Shown piece by piece: positions 49,501 through 55,500 of a DNA stretch of 64,000 nucleotides. The position numbers are program-made. Location of the stretch: NCBI RefSeq assembly GCF_055900595.2, contig NZ_CM148325.1, one strand, 5' to 3'. Numbering within the stretch: position 1 is the first letter of the stretch; every line of letters begins with the position of its first letter.

Positions 49501-52500
49501 TGATTATTGTACAGGATATACGTATCCGCTTAACGAACAAGAGCCTCACTCGCGTCTTTCATCTGGGCCGAATAGATGGGATTCATCATGGTTGTTTATA
49601 GTACCGTCGTCTCTCCCCTTTATTTTTACAGAAAAGCAAACAGAAACCATAAATACCGGCGTTGACATGGCGGGGAAGCCGGCAACGGCTATCCCTACCG
49701 TAATCATAATATTTCTGTCATTTCTGCTCCCTACAATGACGTTAGTTTTACTTCTGGGCGATAACAACGAAAGGAGAGTATGACATGCACAACTCCAAAA
49801 TCCGGCTGGCTATACTGGTTGGCTGCATGGCTCTGAGCGCCAACCTGTGGGCCAAAGCGCAGCCGGTGCAGGCAACGCTGGCCGGGCATGCAATTCTGCC
49901 GGCAAAATCCGCTGTTTCAACACCGAAGGATGCGCCGGGCGATTTGCAACAGAGCGGCAAATACACCAGCGGCAAACGCGTCACCGAGCTGGGCAGCGTA
50001 GCGGGAAAATCCGCAGAACGCCTGACAGGACTCAGCCTGCCGATCAATGGTCAGCCGTTGCAGGGCCACTCAGGTATCAAACACATGCCCGACGGTACCT
50101 ATTGGGTGCTGACTGACAATGGCTTCGGCAGCAAAGCCAACTCCCCGGACGCCATGCTGTACCTCAACCAATACAAGATAGATTTCAAAGACGGCTCGGT
50201 AGTACCGCTGAAGACGCTGTTCCTGCATGATCCGGATAAAAAGGTGCCGTTCCACATCATCAACGAGAGCACCGAACTACGCTATCTGACCGGCAGCGAT
50301 TTTGATCCGGAAAGCTTCCAGTTTTCCGACGATGCCTTATGGATCGGTGATGAGTTCGGTCCTTACCTGATCAAGACCGACCTGAACGGCAAGGTGCTGG
50401 CGGTGTTCGACACAGAAGTGGACGGTAAGGTGGTTAAATCGCCGGACAACCCGACGCTGACTCTACCTAGCGCTCCGGACGGTAAGCTGAACTTCCAGGT
50501 GGCGCGTTCCAAAGGCTTTGAAGGCATGGCCATCTCGCCGGACGGCAGTAAGCTGTATCCGCTGCTGGAAGGGGCATTGTGGGACGGTGAGCAGTTCGAG
50601 AACGTTGGCGGAAAACGCTACCTGCGTGTGCTGGAGTTCGATGCCAAACAGCAGGCCTGGACTGGTCGCAGCTGGCAGTACGTGCTGGAAGACAACCAGA
50701 ACGCCATCGGCGACTTCAATATGATAGATGATACCCACGGACTGGTGATCGAGCGTGATAACGGCGAAGGCACGGCGGATAAAGCCTGCGTCGCCGGCGC
50801 GCCGACCAACAACTGCTTCAGTCAAGTAGCCAGGTTCAAACGGGTGTATAAAATTGCTTTCTCGGACACTAACGTCGGAAAACCTGTCGAAAAACTGGGC
50901 TATATTGACCTGATGAAGATTCAGGATCCGAACAAGCTGGCACGCAAGCCGCTGAACGACGGTGTGCTGACCTTCCCGTTCTTCACCATCGAGAACGTGG
51001 ATGTGGTTGACACTAACCACATCATCGTAGGCAACGATAATAACTTCCCGTTTTCCTCCAGCCGCTGGCCTAATATGGCGGATGACAACGAGTTTATTCT
51101 ACTGGATGTGAAGGATTTTCTGAAGTAGGGGGAAGAGCATCTTACGATACTCCTCGCTAATTTTAAAACGAACGGTGCTGAGCACCGTTTTTAATCACCT
51201 CGCCAGAACCTACCAGAATATGATGTTGGTTTATTATCACTGATTCATGGGGAGCACCCAGCGCTTCGGCGGTTTTTTATGTCTTTAAAGCAGTAGCGGT
51301 AGGGTCGCGCTGGCTGTTTTCTGGCTCACCTCGCTGTACTGGTCATCCAGCGCAATCAGCGATGTGGTGAGTAGCTCTACCAACAGCATCACTCCCACTT
51401 TGGCAGTCAGCGCGCCGGCACTCAAGGGTCCTTCCGGTTTGGCCGCGACCAGTTGAATATCACTCAGCGAAGCTAACGGACTGCGCGGTGTATTACTCAG
51501 CGCCAGTACACGCACACCTTGCTTACGCGCTAGTTTTACGACATGCAGCAGATCGCGCGTGGATCCAGAACTGGAAATCGCCACCACGAACGTGTTTTTA
51601 CTAAGTGTTGTGGCGTTCATGGCAGCACGATGCATATCGCTGAACAATTGTGCGGGTTTCCCCAGACGCAGGAGTTTATAATGTAAATACTCCCCCAGAA
51701 TGGCACTGGCTGCTACGCCATAAATCTGCACTGACTGAGCCTGATGCAGTGCAAGCGCGGCTGCTTCCAGCAAGGTTCTGTCGAGTAATTTTGCTGTGTC
51801 CTGTATTGCTTGCACGGATTCATTGACCACATTGTCAATCTCATCACCGCCGTGCTCTACAAACTGTACTTGTCGGAGATCGAGTGCCAGCGCCATTTTG
51901 AATTCGTTATAGCCCTTACACCCAAGCGTTCGGCACAGACGTGTGACGCTAGCCTCGCTGGTGCCGCTTTCACGCGCAAGTTCGGTAATCGTCAGGTAGA
52001 CAACTTTTGCCGGATCGCTAAGTACAAACTCTCCCAGCTTCTGTTGTGTTCGGCTATATCCATCAACGCTCTGGCGCAATCTCAGCAGCAGGTTTTCATT
52101 TTCTGACATGTAAAATCCTTAATGCGTTTATCTGTTGATAGTGTGACGGAAAGGAGGGGATTGATGCCAGACATTTTAAAAAAGTATGATCGACTTCTTA
52201 GATTTTGATGGTGATTTTTATTTATAAGAATAATTATAGTAAAAATTTTCATCAAAAATCGAGGAGATGATAAAATGATGCAAATGTTTAGCGGCGCTTC
52301 ATCGGGGGGATGGTTTGAAAAAGCGCAGCGGTTCGGAAAATCCTTCATGCTGCCGATTGCGGTATTGCCCGCAGCAGGGCTGTTATTAGGGATTGGTGGC
52401 GCGTTGTCAAATCCAAACACGTTGACGGCTTATCCGTTTTTAGATGCCGACTGGTTGCAGGCAATATTCACAATCATGACCAGCGCAGGTTCTATTGTGT

Positions 52501-55500
52501 TTGCCAACCTGTCGGTACTCTTTGCAGTCGGCGTCGCCGTGGGGCTGGCGAAATCGGATAAAGGCACTGCCGGGCTTGCGTCATTGCTGGCGTTTCTGGT
52601 GATGAATGCCACCATCAACGCCTTATTAACGCTCAACGGAACGCTGGCGCACAAGAACCCCGCTTCAGTTGGCCAGGGGATGACGCTTGGTATTCAGACA
52701 CTGGAAACTGGTGTGTTTGGTGGGGTGGTGATTGGTCTCGTCACCTGCACTTTACATAGCCGTTTCAATAAAGTCTCACTACCTCAGTTTCTCGGTTTTT
52801 TTAGTGGTTCTCGTTTTGTACCCATTATCAGCTCCCTTGCCGCGATAGTAGTGGGTGCGGTTATGACGGTGGTGTGGCCGCATTTCCAGAAACTCATTTT
52901 TGGACTGGGCGACCTGGTGGATGCGACGGGCTATCTGGGGACGCTGTTGTACGGCTTCATCCTGCGTATGCTTGGTCCACTGGGTTTACACCATATCTTT
53001 TATTTGCCGTTCTGGACGACGGCGCTGGGCGGCAGTGAAATCGTCAACGGCCAGTTGGTTGAAGGTACGCAGCGGATTTTCTTTGCCCAACTTGCCGATC
53101 CGAATACGCAGCAGTTCTACGCGGGTACCGCTCGCTTTATGTCCGGGCGCTTTATCACCATGATGTTTGGCCTGCTTGGCGCATGTCTGGCAATGTACCA
53201 TACTGCAAAGCCGGAGAATAGAAAGGTTGTCGCCGGACTACTTTTGTCAGCAGCCCTGACCTCTTTCCTGACGGGAATCACTGAGCCTGTTGAGTTCTCC
53301 TTCCTGTTTGTCGCGCCCGTATTATACGTAATTCACGCCTTCTTCGATGGTCTGGCGTTTATGGTCGCCCATATTTTACATATCACTATTGGGCAAACCT
53401 TTTCGGGCGGGCTTATCGATTTCCTTCTCTTCGGCGTGTTGCAGGGGGAAGCTAAAACAAACTGGATGTATGTCCCCATAGTGGGAATACCGTGGTTCTT
53501 CCTTTACTACTTTACTTTCCGCTATTTGATTAACCGCTTTGGCTGGCTGACGCCGGGGCGTGAGAACGTAACCCAGGTTGAATCCGGCCAGCCTCAGAGT
53601 GAACGCGCAGCGGCAGTCATTGCCGGGCTGGGAGGCAAAGAGAATCTGGAAGAGGTGGACTGTTGCGCCACGCGCCTGCGCGTGACGGTTAAAGAGAGCA
53701 GTAAGGTAGATGAAGCTGCGCTGAAAGTGGCCGGAGCGCGTGGCGTGATTATTCGCGGCAACGGCGTTCAGGTGATTTATGGCCCTCATGTCACCATCAT
53801 TAAAAACGAAGTCGAAGAGATTTTATCGTAATGAAAACTGTACTGGATTCCCTGAAAGGTAAATTAATCGTCTCCTGTCAGGCTCTGGAAAATGAGCCTC
53901 TACATAGTCCGTTTATTATGTCACGTATGGCGCTGGCGGCAGCACAAGGTGGTGCTGCAGGTATCCGTGCCAACAGCGTGGCGGATATTAGTGCTATCAA
54001 AGAGATTGTCTCCCTTCCGATGATAGGGATTATCAAACGCGATTACCCTGGCAGTGAGGTGTTTATCACGGCCACTCTCCGGGAAGTGGATGAGCTGATG
54101 ACCGTTGAGCCGGAAATTATTGCCCTGGATGCTACTGCGCGCCCGCGCCCTAGTGGTCAGACGCTGGAAGAACTGGTCACGCAGATCCGCGCTCGCTACC
54201 CGTCCATACTTCTGATGGCAGATATAGCAACAGTAGAAGAGGCAGTGACAGCTGAACGTCTGGGTTTTGACTGTGTGGGCACTACGCTCTACGGCTATAC
54301 CGCAGAAACTGCTAGGCATGTGCTGGCGGAAAATGACTGTGGATTCTTACGTGAGGTCCTGAAAGCGGTCAGCGTTCCGGTCGTGGCGGAAGGGAATGTC
54401 GACACCCCGGAGTGCGCCGCACGTTGCCTGACATTAGGCGCTCATACCGTGGTGGTTGGGGGGGCAATCACTCGTCCGCAGCAGATAACGACACGCTTTA
54501 TCGCAGCGATCGCCTCGTAAAGCACCGATGAGGCATGATATTTTGCTGGGAATAAGCGATAATTATCGCTTATTCCATATTGAGAGTGCTATGCAGTACC
54601 CGATTAGCTCGGCAGGGGCTAAATCATGGTTATCCGGTCATGCTGCGCATGGATAATGGCTCGGAATTTAACACTCTCGCGCTGACACTGGCTGAATGGG
54701 CATAGATACTCGCAGTAAAACGAGAGCTCAGCCAGCCTGGTCGAGTTACCCCTGATAGAGGAATACTGATCCTACCCCATGTAATGTGGACACAAGCCTA
54801 AGTGATGTTCTGGTTTTCAAATTGTTCCGTACTGAGACCACCACACCAGCTGTGCCCTAACAGGCACAGTTTCAGCACTCCTAAGCAACCGTAAAATGGC
54901 ACCAGTTTCACAAGCAATTGTGCTCATTATTATTGCTATAACAAAAACCTTTTTTTCTGATGAATGAATTATTAATATAATTCTGATCAAACACCTGTTT
55001 TTTTAACCTACAGAAGGAGTTATTATGAAAAAATACTCTTCTCCCGTCCTTGCACTCATTCTTGTTAGCAGCAGTATGGTATCCTCCGCTGCCACAAAAG
55101 AAATCTCAAAAACAGCTTATGTCTGTAATGGAAATAAGACAATGGAGGTGGTCTATATCAACACCACTGCTGGGAACTCATATGCAGTGATTAATCAGAT
55201 GGATGAGATGATACCTATGCAGCTTATGAAAATGGCCTCCGGAGCCAATTACGAAGCCATCAATAAAAGATACTCATATAAACTGTACACAAAAGGGAAA
55301 AAAGCCAATCTGGTGGAAGGGAATGATAATCCTGTCTTAAGCAACTGTTCATCGGCCGAATGACAGCCATCGTGCTAACCGTGATATTCTGCTGACTTAA
55401 CCTGTTTACCATTCTGTGTAAATGCCTTTTCTTTAAAGTGACCGTCAGGACGGTCACTGATTACCCATTCTGAATTCAGTGCAGAATTAAAATATGTGTG

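What the first reader, a model, noticed from the sequence alone, without database searches (positions are those of the whole stretch)
51285..54520. Self-contained RpiR / PTS-EIICB / NanE-like sugar utilisation module
A divergently transcribed RpiR-family (HTH+SIS) regulator and a two-gene operon (PTS EIICB with CATRLR site; NanE-like 2-epimerase whose ATG overlaps the EIICB stop, implying translational coupling). It is followed by a perfect palindrome ggaataagcgataa-tt-atcgcttattcc (about 54546-54575). The arrangement suggests uptake and epimerisation of an amino sugar such as N-acetylmannosamine, independent of the chromosomal nan locus.
Basis: inference. Interest (0 to 1): 0.4.

Follow-up and report, generated by a model that had tools for sequence, protein, structure and literature searches.

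The report
Island-borne N-acetylmannosamine uptake cassette
This is an intact three-gene sugar-use cassette (regulator, PTS transporter, NanE epimerase) that some E. coli strains carry on a genomic island, most likely for growth on the amino sugar N-acetylmannosamine; it is an ordinary kind of accessory metabolic module, though its transporter family has not been tested experimentally.

Summary
Three intact genes lie exactly where stated: an HTH+SIS regulator (51285-52109, minus strand), a Glc-family PTS EIICB with the phosphorylation cysteine in CATRLR (52275-53831), and a NanE epimerase (53831-54520) whose ATG overlaps the EIICB stop.

- The regulator's closest solved relative by far is the Vibrio vulnificus ManNAc-6-phosphate-sensing repressor NanR.
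- NanE keeps both catalytic residues.
- EIICB and NanE stay adjacent in 12 loci outside E. coli (Enterobacterales, Aeromonas, Bacillota, one metagenome contig), and an RpiR gene is present in every one.

Two points need correction. The module is not self-contained. It has no EIIA, so it must borrow EI, HPr and Crr, and it needs NagA/NagB downstream. It also sits on the chromosome, about 34 kb inside a tRNA-Phe (pheU) island.

The 28-nt palindrome (54549-54576) is not a module terminator. It lies in DNA homologous to the region upstream of queE. The whole 3.35-kb block (51262-54606) is a fragment of a Citrobacter-like eno-queE locus, and it ends in the first 16 nt of queE followed by an IS3 remnant.

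The substrate is inferred, not shown. The cassette is present in 468 of 5426 complete E. coli genomes. I rate it a new member of a known kind, of modest interest.

The parts
51262..51284 (.). Left end of the donor-derived block. Short flank homologous to the eno-terminator region of the Citrobacter eno-rpiR spacer.
   Evidence: Homology to Citrobacter L011 begins at window 51262. The alignment shows the shared ...GGTTTTTTATG... terminator tail.
51285..52109 (-). RpiR/MurR-family regulator (274 aa, HTH_6 + SIS). It is a NanR-like regulator of the RpiR type and a predicted ManNAc-6-P-responsive repressor.
   Evidence: Pfam HTH_6 and SIS. The best PDB match is 4IVN, V. vulnificus NanR, at E 1.4e-68 over residues 3-273; the next best is RccR at 5e-32. 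The SSSGST phosphate loop (179-184), and the Ser and His that align with VvNanR S138 and H163, are conserved.
52110..52274 (.). Divergent promoter/operator region. Two boxes resemble TGAAAATTTTCA, 31 nt apart: site 1 at 52209-52220 (TGGTGATTTTTA, degenerate in this allele) and site 2 at 52240-52251 (TAAAAATTTTCA). They flank a sigma-70-like promoter (TTGATG 52205-52210, 18-nt spacer, AATAAT 52229-52234). A weak CRP-like site lies at 52185-52200.
   Evidence: The boxes are conserved in position in Citrobacter, Cronobacter, Serratia and two other E. coli alleles, and one box in Pantoea. An 18-nt inverted repeat links 52203-52220 and 52240-52257. Promoter scan. The half-sites resemble the S. pneumoniae NanR site TGAAA-N4-TTTCA (PMC12713135). 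Function is inferred.
52275..53831 (+). PTS enzyme IICB of the glucose (Glc) family, 518 aa, with no EIIA domain. Predicted N-acetylmannosamine-specific permease/phosphotransferase.
   Evidence: Pfam PTS_EIIC and PTS_EIIB. NCBIfam TIGR02002 scores 587 bits, just under its 591.8 cut-off. The protein aligns with PtsG at E 1e-107; Cys464, GITEP (334) and GLHHI (237) are conserved. Orthologues are 75-96% identical in Enterobacterales, Aeromonas, Selenomonas and Peribacillus.
53831..54520 (+). N-acetylmannosamine-6-phosphate 2-epimerase (NanE), 229 aa. Its start overlaps the EIICB stop (TAATG).
   Evidence: Pfam NanE 1e-69 and NF002231 above its cut-off. The best PDB matches are S. aureus NanE 1Y0E/6VVA at E 1e-78. 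Lys69 and Glu187 align with S. aureus K63 and with E180, the residue changed to Ala in entry 7MFN. It is 41% identical to K-12 NanE.
54521..54606 (+). Right flank carried over from the donor chromosome: the ancestral region upstream of queE. It contains the perfect 28-nt palindrome (54549-54576, including a GATAAT -10-like hexamer), a GAGAG Shine-Dalgarno sequence, and the first 16 nt of queE (ATGCAGTACCCGATTA, 54591-54606).
   Evidence: Alignment with the Citrobacter nanE-queE spacer and queE start. The homologous K-12 sequence upstream of queE is shown. An E. coli allele with a 264-nt queE fragment is shown. The palindrome is unique. It folds as a 12-bp stem with a 4-nt loop and has no U-tract.
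54607..54856 (+). IS3-family transposase remnant that cuts off the donor block.
   Evidence: Homology to Citrobacter stops at 54606. Window 54621-54856 matches IS3-family transposase genes in other E. coli genomes at 76-90% identity. The translation reads ...MLRMDNGSEF....

Best explanation
The locus is an accessory, horizontally acquired cassette for using free N-acetylmannosamine (ManNAc).

Proposed mechanism:
1. The EIICB takes up ManNAc and phosphorylates it at C6. The phosphoryl group passes from PEP through host EI, HPr and EIIA-Glc (Crr) to Cys464.
2. NanE, made from the same mRNA by coupled translation, converts ManNAc-6-P to GlcNAc-6-P.
3. Host NagA and NagB convert GlcNAc-6-P to fructose-6-P.
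4. The divergent NanR-like RpiR regulator binds two TGAAAATTTTCA-like boxes that bracket the EIICB promoter. It represses transcription until ManNAc-6-P, the transporter's product, binds its SIS domain. Some CRP input is possible.

What is shown here: gene identities, conserved catalytic and phosphorylation residues, conserved linkage, purifying selection, and origin as a fragment of a Citrobacter-like eno-queE locus now inside a pheU island.

What is inferred: the substrate, the inducer, repressor rather than activator action, the operator boxes, and dependence on Crr.
For: - Domain and family assignments for all three proteins.
- The regulator is by far closest to VvNanR, 4IVN, at E 1.4e-68 and about 50% identity over its full length. 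4IVN is the ManNAc-6-P complex (PMC12713135, PMC9177960).
- NanE matches S. aureus NanE at E 1e-78, with the catalytic Lys and Glu conserved.
- EIICB has the aligned active-site Cys and the GITE motif.
- EIICB and NanE are adjacent, usually overlapping or within a few nt, and an RpiR gene is present, in Citrobacter, Cronobacter, Pantoea, Serratia, Aeromonas, Peribacillus, Selenomonas (there with nagB, nagA, a ROK kinase and a YhcH-like gene), Priestia, Paenibacillus larvae, and a metagenomic relative only 48% identical with a different gene order.
- dN/dS is 0.04-0.23 for all three genes.
- The full module is intact in 468 of 5426 complete E. coli genomes and on conjugative IncF plasmids.
- The operator-like boxes are conserved across genera.
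- Precedent: the Listeria lmo2795-nanE operon (RpiR + PTS + NanE) is needed for growth on ManNAc (PMC10667646).
- From my own knowledge of Plumbridge & Vimr 1999 (PMID 9864311; the paper is not held): K-12 grows poorly on ManNAc unless two mutations raise ManXYZ transport and nanE expression. These are exactly the two functions this module supplies.
Against: - No experiment on this transporter family turned up in four literature searches aimed at it.
- The one nanE-adjacent Glc-family EIIBC that has been studied genetically, pneumococcal SP1684, showed a mild glucosamine phenotype rather than a ManNAc phenotype, although ManNAc induces it (PMC3302838, PMC3509027). I could not measure how close it is to this protein.
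- In Listeria, deleting the linked PTS did not abolish growth on ManNAc (PMC10667646).
- Automatic annotation calls the protein maltose/glucose-specific, and its best NCBIfam model is the glucose IIBC model, just below its cut-off.
- The conserved SIS residues I could check bind phosphate and are generic to the RpiR family (PMC9177960), so ligand identity rests on overall similarity.
- Operator site 1 is degenerate in this allele, matching 8 of 12 positions.
- RpiR regulators can be activators, as are SpNanR and Lmo2795.
Confidence: 0.68

Rival explanations
1. The EIICB imports a different amino sugar, such as glucosamine or GlcNAc (as reported for pneumococcal SP1684/NanP), or a ManNAc analogue such as N-glycolylmannosamine. 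NanE would then act mainly on ManNAc-6-P that arises by other routes.
For: - The SP1684 mutant grows more slowly on GlcN, and that gene also lacks an EIIA (PMC3302838). The abstract of PMC5110562 lists nanP among genes with elevated expression in GlcNAc-grown cells (seen in the listing; I did not read the paper).
- The best-scoring models are the glucose and GlcNAc IIBC families.
- A 48%-identical relative sits next to a sulfatase and a GntR regulator, which suggests that substrates vary within the wider family.
Against: - In a minimal three-gene unit with overlapping reading frames, NanE has no substrate unless the transporter delivers ManNAc-6-P. GlcN-6-P and GlcNAc-6-P do not need it.
- The regulator's nearest characterised relative senses ManNAc-6-P.
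- The linkage to NanE holds from 96% down to 48% EIICB identity.
- E. coli already has NagE and ManXYZ for GlcNAc and GlcN.
Confidence: 0.2
2. The module is inert cargo of a decaying, IS-ridden island and has no current function in E. coli.
For: - It is flanked by an IS110 pseudogene and an IS3 remnant, and it carries a truncated queE fossil.
- Operator site 1 has degenerated in this allele.
Against: - All three ORFs are full length.
- dN/dS is 0.04-0.23, including between E. coli alleles.
- The module is intact in 468 complete genomes, as at least three alleles, and on IncF plasmids.
Confidence: 0.05
3. The 28-nt palindrome is the module's own transcription terminator or a regulator-binding site.
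For: - It lies 28 nt after the nanE stop codon.
- It forms a strong 12-bp hairpin, and the flank folds with a z-score of -3.0.
- It is more perfect in the E. coli allele than in Citrobacter.
Against: - No U-tract follows it.
- The sequence is homologous to the DNA just upstream of queE in K-12, which has no module.
- It contains a -10-like GATAAT, 28 nt before the queE ATG.
- It does not resemble the TGAAAATTTTCA boxes.
Confidence: 0.2

Closest known systems
Vibrio vulnificus NanR (RpiR family; PDB 4IVN, in complex with ManNAc-6-P) and its nan regulon
   Same: - The regulator has the same HTH_6 + SIS architecture and is about 50% identical over the full length.
- The phosphate-binding Ser/Thr loop is conserved.
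- It controls a nanE-containing operon from a divergent intergenic region with two sites, and CRP may contribute. In Vibrio, two NanR sites and CRP are described (title of Kim et al. 2011, as cited in PMC12713135).
   Different: - The Vibrio regulon takes up sialic acid through a TRAP transporter (my recollection, not checked here) and includes NanA and NanK.
- This module has no lyase, no kinase and no sialic acid transporter. A PTS supplies the phosphorylated intermediate directly.
Listeria monocytogenes lmo2795-nanE operon (PMC10667646)
   Same: - It combines an RpiR regulator, a PTS and NanE.
- NanE is required for growth on ManNAc.
- The regulator binds its own promoter region.
   Different: - The Listeria operon is larger, with a ROK protein, a HAD hydrolase, an oxidoreductase and a separate EIIA.
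- Its regulator is an activator.
- Its PTS was dispensable for growth on ManNAc.
E. coli K-12 ManNAc route: ManXYZ, then NanE (nanATEK-yhcH), then NagA/NagB
   Same: The chemistry is the same: PTS phosphorylation of ManNAc, 2-epimerisation to GlcNAc-6-P, then NagA and NagB (PMC3658417 for the pathway).
   Different: - The K-12 transporter is a Man-family PTS, and its NanE is controlled by a NanR that belongs to a regulator family other than RpiR (GntR/FadR type, from my own knowledge).
- The module NanE is only 41% identical to K-12 NanE and is closer to NanE of Bacillota (59%).
- The module couples a dedicated Glc-family transporter and NanE under one regulator that probably senses ManNAc-6-P.
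Streptococcus pneumoniae SP1684/NanP with SP1685 NanE in the nanAB locus
   Same: - A Glc-family EIIBC without EIIA lies next to nanE.
- It is under an RpiR-type NanR that binds ManNAc-6-P.
- It is induced by ManNAc (PMC3302838, PMC3509027, PMC12713135).
   Different: - It is embedded in an 18-gene sialic acid locus.
- The reported phenotype is on glucosamine.
- SpNanR is an activator.
- Sequence relatedness to this EIICB was not measured.
E. coli PtsG / MalX / NagE (TC 4.A.1.1 Glc-family EIICB)
   Same: - The fold and domain order are the same, as are the active-site Cys and the GITE and HH motifs.
- The protein aligns with PtsG end to end at E 1e-107.
- Like PtsG, it has no EIIA domain of its own.
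   Different: - It falls below the cut-off of every substrate-specific NCBIfam model.
- It has loop insertions relative to PtsG.
- It is invariably linked to NanE.

Membership tests
PTS Glc-family enzyme IICB (Pfam PF02378 + PF00367) | EIIC membrane domain followed by an EIIB domain | tested here: met
   PTS_EIIC 1e-88 (residues 21-359) and PTS_EIIB 2e-15 (residues 447-479).
PTS Glc-family enzyme IICB (Pfam PF02378 + PF00367) | Phosphorylatable cysteine in the C-x-T-R-L-R motif of EIIB | tested here: met
   Cys464 in CATRLR aligns with the Cys of CITRLR in E. coli PtsG.
PTS Glc-family enzyme IICB (Pfam PF02378 + PF00367) | Conserved GITE and HH motifs of the sugar site | tested here: met
   GITEP at 334 and GLHHI at 237 align with the PtsG motifs.
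PTS Glc-family enzyme IICB (Pfam PF02378 + PF00367) | A cognate EIIA, either fused or encoded nearby (needed for 'self-contained') | tested here: not met
   The protein has no EIIA domain, and none of the three module proteins or the adjacent upstream ORF has one. Host Crr is presumed to serve.
Glucose- or maltose-specific IIBC (NCBIfam TIGR02002 / TIGR02004 / PRK11089) | Score above the curated equivalog cut-off | tested here: not met
   587.3 against 591.8 for TIGR02002; 482 against 632 for TIGR02004; 421 against 647 for PRK11089. The RefSeq name 'maltose/glucose-specific' therefore carries little weight.
ManNAc-specific PTS (proposed function) | PEP-dependent uptake and phosphorylation of ManNAc | not testable with these tools
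   Inferred only from conserved linkage to NanE and to a NanR-like regulator.
NanE, ManNAc-6-P 2-epimerase (PF04131 / NF002231) | Family HMM above its cut-off | tested here: met
   PF04131 scores 233.8 bits (cut-off 27). NF002231 scores 316.4 bits (cut-off 189).
NanE, ManNAc-6-P 2-epimerase (PF04131 / NF002231) | Catalytic Lys and Glu (S. aureus NanE K63 and E180) | tested here: met
   K69 (IIKRDY) and E187 (VAEGN) align with S. aureus K63 and E180. The E180A mutant entry 7MFN differs from the wild type at exactly that column.
NanE, ManNAc-6-P 2-epimerase (PF04131 / NF002231) | Epimerase activity on ManNAc-6-P | not testable with these tools
   About 60% identity to the structurally characterised S. 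aureus enzyme makes the same function likely.
RpiR/MurR-family regulators, NanR (RpiR-type) subgroup | N-terminal HTH_6 and C-terminal SIS domain | tested here: met
   HTH_6 at residues 6-78 and SIS at residues 121-248.
RpiR/MurR-family regulators, NanR (RpiR-type) subgroup | Closest characterised relative is a ManNAc-6-P-binding NanR | tested here: met
   4IVN at E 1.4e-68, against 5e-32 for RccR and 7e-17 for MurR.
RpiR/MurR-family regulators, NanR (RpiR-type) subgroup | Residues that read the ManNAc moiety; binding of ManNAc-6-P | tested here: inconclusive
   Only the generic phosphate-binding residues could be checked, and they are conserved (PMC9177960). The paper that lists the ligand contacts is not held.
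RpiR/MurR-family regulators, NanR (RpiR-type) subgroup | Palindromic operator in the controlled promoter | tested here: inconclusive
   Two conserved TGAAAATTTTCA-like boxes were found by comparing orthologous spacers from other genera (phylogenetic footprinting). No binding data exist. Site 1 is weak in this allele. No match of two or fewer mismatches was found in Aeromonas.
Canonical E. coli nan (sialic acid) operon | NanA lyase, NanT transporter, NanK kinase and the K-12-type (non-RpiR) NanR | tested here: not met
   None of these lies in or next to the module. Compare the K-12 nan locus.
Intrinsic (Rho-independent) terminator, for the palindrome | GC-rich stem followed by a U-tract | tested here: not met
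   The stem is present, but the following sequence is AUAUUGAGAG. The terminator scan did not report it.
tRNA-associated genomic island | Insertion next to a tRNA gene, with an adjacent tyrosine integrase and variable IS-rich cargo | tested here: met
   tRNA-Phe at 17078-17153; integrase at 17351-18613; dsbD-dicD-tRNA-Phe flank and variable content between strains.

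The most novel reading that the evidence does not exclude
This EIICB is the E. coli representative of an uncharacterised, dedicated ManNAc-specific branch of the Glc-family PTS. It travels with NanE as a mobile cassette across phyla: the transporter is 75% identical between E. coli and Bacillota, while the regulator has been exchanged. In E. coli the cassette supplies, in one step, the two functions (transport and NanE expression) that K-12 gains only through two regulatory mutations. About 9% of strains, many of them avian or extraintestinal isolates, would therefore grow efficiently on free ManNAc released from sialic acid or from bacterial cell-wall polymers.
Probability: 0.6. 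Interest if true: 0.4.

Novelty: new member of a known kind. Interest (0 to 1): 0.25.

Why it matters
If the prediction holds, it assigns a substrate to a widespread PTS subfamily that is generically annotated and probably misnamed 'maltose/glucose-specific'. It would also explain strain-to-strain differences in ManNAc use among E. coli, Citrobacter, Cronobacter, Serratia and Pantoea.

It would give a compact, regulator-controlled ManNAc uptake part that could be useful for sialic acid engineering.

The queE fossil is a clean example of how a core-genome-adjacent metabolic locus from a neighbouring genus gets captured into a pathogenicity-island setting.

None of this overturns current understanding. 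It is an ordinary accessory catabolic cassette.

Tried and rejected
- Three papers are not held: Plumbridge & Vimr 1999, Hwang et al. 2013, which lists the VvNanR ligand contacts, and Kim et al. 2011. I therefore could not check ManNAc-specific ligand residues. The K-12 ManNAc physiology is cited from memory.
- Five literature searches found nothing relevant: this module in E. coli islands, the locus in Cronobacter, pheU plus ManNAc, any ManNAc-specific PTS, and strain variation in ManNAc use on phenotype microarrays.
- A Pfam scan of the 34-aa IS fragment gave nothing. DNA similarity to IS3 transposases settled the question instead.
- The TGAAAATTTTCA box was not found, at two or fewer mismatches, upstream of the Aeromonas, Peribacillus or Selenomonas operons. 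The Bacillota loci have GAAAA-N3-TTTTC-type palindromes instead, seen by eye in the output, which fits their unrelated RpiR lineage.
- The CRP-like site is good in Pantoea and Serratia but weak in E. coli, so I keep it only as a possibility.
- I considered that the module NanE is a duplicate of the resident nanE. Rejected: 41% identity.
- I considered that the window is a plasmid. Rejected: the flank is chromosomal dcuA-cutA-dsbD-dicD-tRNA-Phe.
- I did not run the genome-wide or metagenome locus scans, or structure prediction. Synteny from 12 loci outside E. coli was sufficient.
- The relationship to pneumococcal SP1684 could not be measured, because I could not obtain its sequence.

Full report

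Yes.

- Pfam assigns HTH_6 + SIS to the first ORF, PTS_EIIC + PTS_EIIB to the second and NanE to the third. All score far above their cut-offs.
- NCBIfam places the third ORF in NF002231, N-acetylmannosamine-6-phosphate 2-epimerase, at 316 bits against a cut-off of 189.
- The EIICB stop and the nanE start share one base (TAATG).
Cys464 in CATRLR aligns with the cysteine of CITRLR in E. coli PtsG.
- The palindrome is real, perfect and unique in the window, with none found in 100 shuffles. It lies at 54549-54576 and is a 14+14 palindrome with no spacer.

**2. Where is it?**

The window is E. coli chromosome.

- Window 13627-17153 matches the dcuA-cutA-dsbD-dicD-tRNA-Phe region of strain EC1515.
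- ARAGORN finds tRNA-Phe at 17078-17153, and a tyrosine integrase follows at 17351-18613.
- The module therefore lies about 34 kb inside a pheU-type island. The island also carries a serine-protease autotransporter of the SPATE type (Pfam Peptidase_S6), PhoX, sulfatase-family genes and many IS remnants.
- The complete module occurs in 468 of 5426 complete E. coli genomes, as at least three alleles: 147 records at 99% identity or more, 310 at about 96%, and a few at about 94%.
- It also occurs on conjugative IncF plasmids from hens.

**3. Where did it come from?**

Window 51262-54606 is 89% identical at the DNA level to a Citrobacter chromosome segment lying between eno and queE.

- The same three genes sit at that core-genome position in Citrobacter and Cronobacter.
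- The homology starts in the eno terminator tail. It ends precisely after ATGCAGTACCCGATTA, the first 16 nt of queE.
- Beyond that point the window continues into an IS3-family transposase remnant.
- Another E. coli pheU island carries a 94% allele that still has a 264-nt queE fragment.
- The E. coli cassette is therefore a captured fragment of an eno-queE locus, later trimmed by IS activity.

**4. The palindrome.**

The sequence between the nanE stop and the queE ATG is homologous to the DNA just upstream of queE in K-12, which has no module.

- The palindrome contains a -10-like GATAAT and sits 14 nt before the queE start codon.
- It folds into a 12-bp hairpin, but no U-tract follows it, and the terminator scan does not report it.
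- It is best read as a relic of the donor's queE 5' region carried along with the block, not as a terminator or operator of the module.
- It may still impede read-through, but that is untested.

**5. What do the proteins say about function?**

*Regulator.*
- Its best solved relative is V. vulnificus NanR, 4IVN, at E 1.4e-68 and about 50% identity from residue 3 to residue 273.
- The next best matches are far weaker: RccR at 5e-32 and MurR at 7e-17.
- 4IVN is the complex with ManNAc-6-P (PMC12713135, PMC9177960).
- The SSSGST loop and the Ser and His that align with VvNanR S138 and H163 are conserved. These residues bind phosphate and are generic to the family (PMC9177960), so the ligand is inferred from overall similarity.

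*NanE.*
- It is closest to S. aureus NanE, at E 1e-78 and about 60% identity. Lys69 and Glu187 sit at the catalytic K63 and E180 positions.
- It is only 41% identical to K-12 NanE but 59% identical to a Peribacillus NanE.

*EIICB.*
- It aligns end to end with PtsG at E 1e-107, with the GITE and HH motifs conserved.
- It reaches no substrate-specific NCBIfam cut-off, so the RefSeq label 'maltose/glucose-specific' carries little weight.
- It has no EIIA domain, so the module depends on host EI, HPr and, presumably, Crr.
- GlcNAc-6-P must then be processed by host NagA and NagB (pathway as in PMC3658417).

'Self-contained' is therefore an overstatement.

**6. Conserved linkage.**

EIICB orthologues are 75-96% identical in Citrobacter, Raoultella, Salmonella, Cronobacter, Pantoea, Serratia, Aeromonas, Selenomonas and Peribacillus. 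Every locus I inspected has NanE next to the EIICB and an RpiR-family gene in the cluster.

| Organism | Arrangement |
|---|---|
| Serratia, Aeromonas, Cronobacter, Pantoea, Citrobacter | Same divergent layout as the window |
| Peribacillus, Priestia plasmid | EIICB-NanE-RpiR, all on one strand |
| Paenibacillus larvae plasmid | The trio lies between IS256 copies |
| Selenomonas | nagB-nagA-EIICB-nanE-yhcH-like-ROK-RpiR |
| Metagenomic relative, 48% identical | RpiR / NanE-EIICB, with NanE first |

- Across phyla the transporter is the most conserved part (75%), followed by NanE (47-59%).
- The regulator is only 25-29% identical in the three Bacillota loci and 21% in the metagenomic relative. 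The gammaproteobacterial cassettes use a Vibrio-NanR-like regulator, and the Bacillota cassettes use another RpiR lineage.
- All three genes are under purifying selection, with dN/dS of 0.04-0.23.

**7. Regulatory region.**

I aligned the 165-bp spacer with the orthologous spacers of five other genera.

- Two conserved boxes emerge that approximate the palindrome TGAAAATTTTCA, 31 nt apart. An 18-nt inverted repeat links 52203-52220 with 52240-52257.
- The boxes bracket a sigma-70-like promoter: TTGATG, an 18-nt spacer, then AATAAT.
- The half-sites resemble the S. pneumoniae NanR site TGAAA-N4-TTTCA (PMC12713135).
- Two sites over the core promoter resemble the repressor arrangements described for MurR and VvNanR (PMC12713135).
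- In this allele box 1 is degenerate: TGGTGATTTTTA, against TGATAATTTTCA in Citrobacter and in the 94% E. coli allele.
- A column-aligned CRP-like site is good in Pantoea and Serratia but weak here.
- All of this is inference from comparing the spacers. There are no binding data.

**8. Mechanism proposed.**

1. ManNAc is taken up and phosphorylated by the EIICB. The phosphoryl group passes from PEP through EI, HPr and Crr to Cys464.
2. NanE converts ManNAc-6-P to GlcNAc-6-P.
3. NagA and NagB feed GlcNAc-6-P into glycolysis.
4. The NanR-like protein represses transcription until ManNAc-6-P accumulates.

From my own knowledge of Plumbridge & Vimr 1999 (PMID 9864311; not held), K-12 uses ManNAc poorly. 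It needs two regulatory mutations, one raising ManXYZ transport and one raising nanE expression. The cassette supplies just these two functions under a matching sensor.

A Listeria RpiR-PTS-NanE operon needed for growth on ManNAc is an experimental precedent (PMC10667646).

**9. Caveats and rivals.**

- No experiment on this transporter family turned up in four literature searches aimed at it.
- The nanE-adjacent pneumococcal EIIBC SP1684 gave a glucosamine phenotype, although ManNAc induces it (PMC3302838, PMC3509027).
- In Listeria the linked PTS was dispensable (PMC10667646).
- A different or broader amino-sugar specificity therefore remains possible, at about 0.2. Against it, NanE would have no substrate in a minimal three-gene unit unless the transporter produces ManNAc-6-P.
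- Inert cargo is unlikely, at about 0.05, given the selection and conservation data.

**10. Verdict.**

- The locus is a new, untested member of a known kind: a regulator-PTS-enzyme catabolic cassette for ManNAc.
- Its origin is well documented, and it shows an interesting cross-phylum distribution.
- Interest is modest.

Noticed in passing
window 54591-54606 (and L015 7331-7594): The first 16 nt of a queE gene survive at the right end of the module block. Another E. coli pheU island keeps a 264-nt queE fragment next to a 94% allele of the module. These are direct fossils of the donor eno-queE locus.
   Followed up: yes
window 52209-52220: The upstream operator-like box is degenerate in this allele (TGGTGATTTTTA). 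It is TGATAATTTTCA in Citrobacter, Cronobacter and the 94% E. coli allele, and TGGTAATTTTCA in the 96% allele. Regulation may have drifted, possibly towards partial derepression.
   Followed up: partly
L002, L004, L020 compared with window 51285-54520: The EIICB is 68-75% identical between E. coli and Bacillota (Selenomonas, Peribacillus, Priestia), but the linked RpiR regulators are only 25-29% identical. The transporter-epimerase pair has moved between phyla and been paired with different regulator lineages.
   Followed up: partly
L019 (Paenibacillus larvae 21.6-kb plasmid) 1803-7090: EIICB, NanE and a truncated RpiR gene lie between two identical IS256 transposase genes, an arrangement that looks like a composite transposon.
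   Followed up: no
L023 (metagenome contig) 769-7473: A 48%-identical EIICB sits with NanE, a GntR regulator, a DUF3604 protein, a sulfatase and a separate EIIA-Glc-type gene. This may be a PTS route for a sulfated N-acetylhexosamine.
   Followed up: no
L010 (Pantoea) 589-2953: Next to the module lies a second NanE paired with a ROK kinase and a GntR regulator. That makes two NanE paralogues within 7 kb, in a plasmid-like context (PsiA, PsiB, SSB).
   Followed up: no
window 46974-51128: Directly upstream of the module lie an orphan UgpB-like solute-binding protein gene with no permease genes, an IS110 pseudogene, and a 447-aa phytase-like esterase whose N-terminus looks like a signal peptide (by eye). 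They are not part of the Citrobacter-derived block.
   Followed up: no
window 17351-45223: Other island cargo: a tyrosine integrase; an SF1 helicase fused to a PLD nuclease domain (19065-22580); two sulfatase-family proteins, named phosphoethanolamine transferase in related genomes; PhoX alkaline phosphatase (26437-28416); a 1274-aa SPATE autotransporter (33118-36942, minus strand); and an AbgT-family transporter.
   Followed up: no
window 55025-55363: A c-type lysozyme inhibitor (MliC-family) gene is intact here. In strain EC1515 it is split by an ISEc12 (IS21-family) insertion.
   Followed up: partly
window 56658-57065: The 5' part of the YadA-like adhesin gene region contains tandemly repeated DNA, seen as multiple offset self-matches of about 100 nt in the comparison with EC1515.
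   Followed up: no
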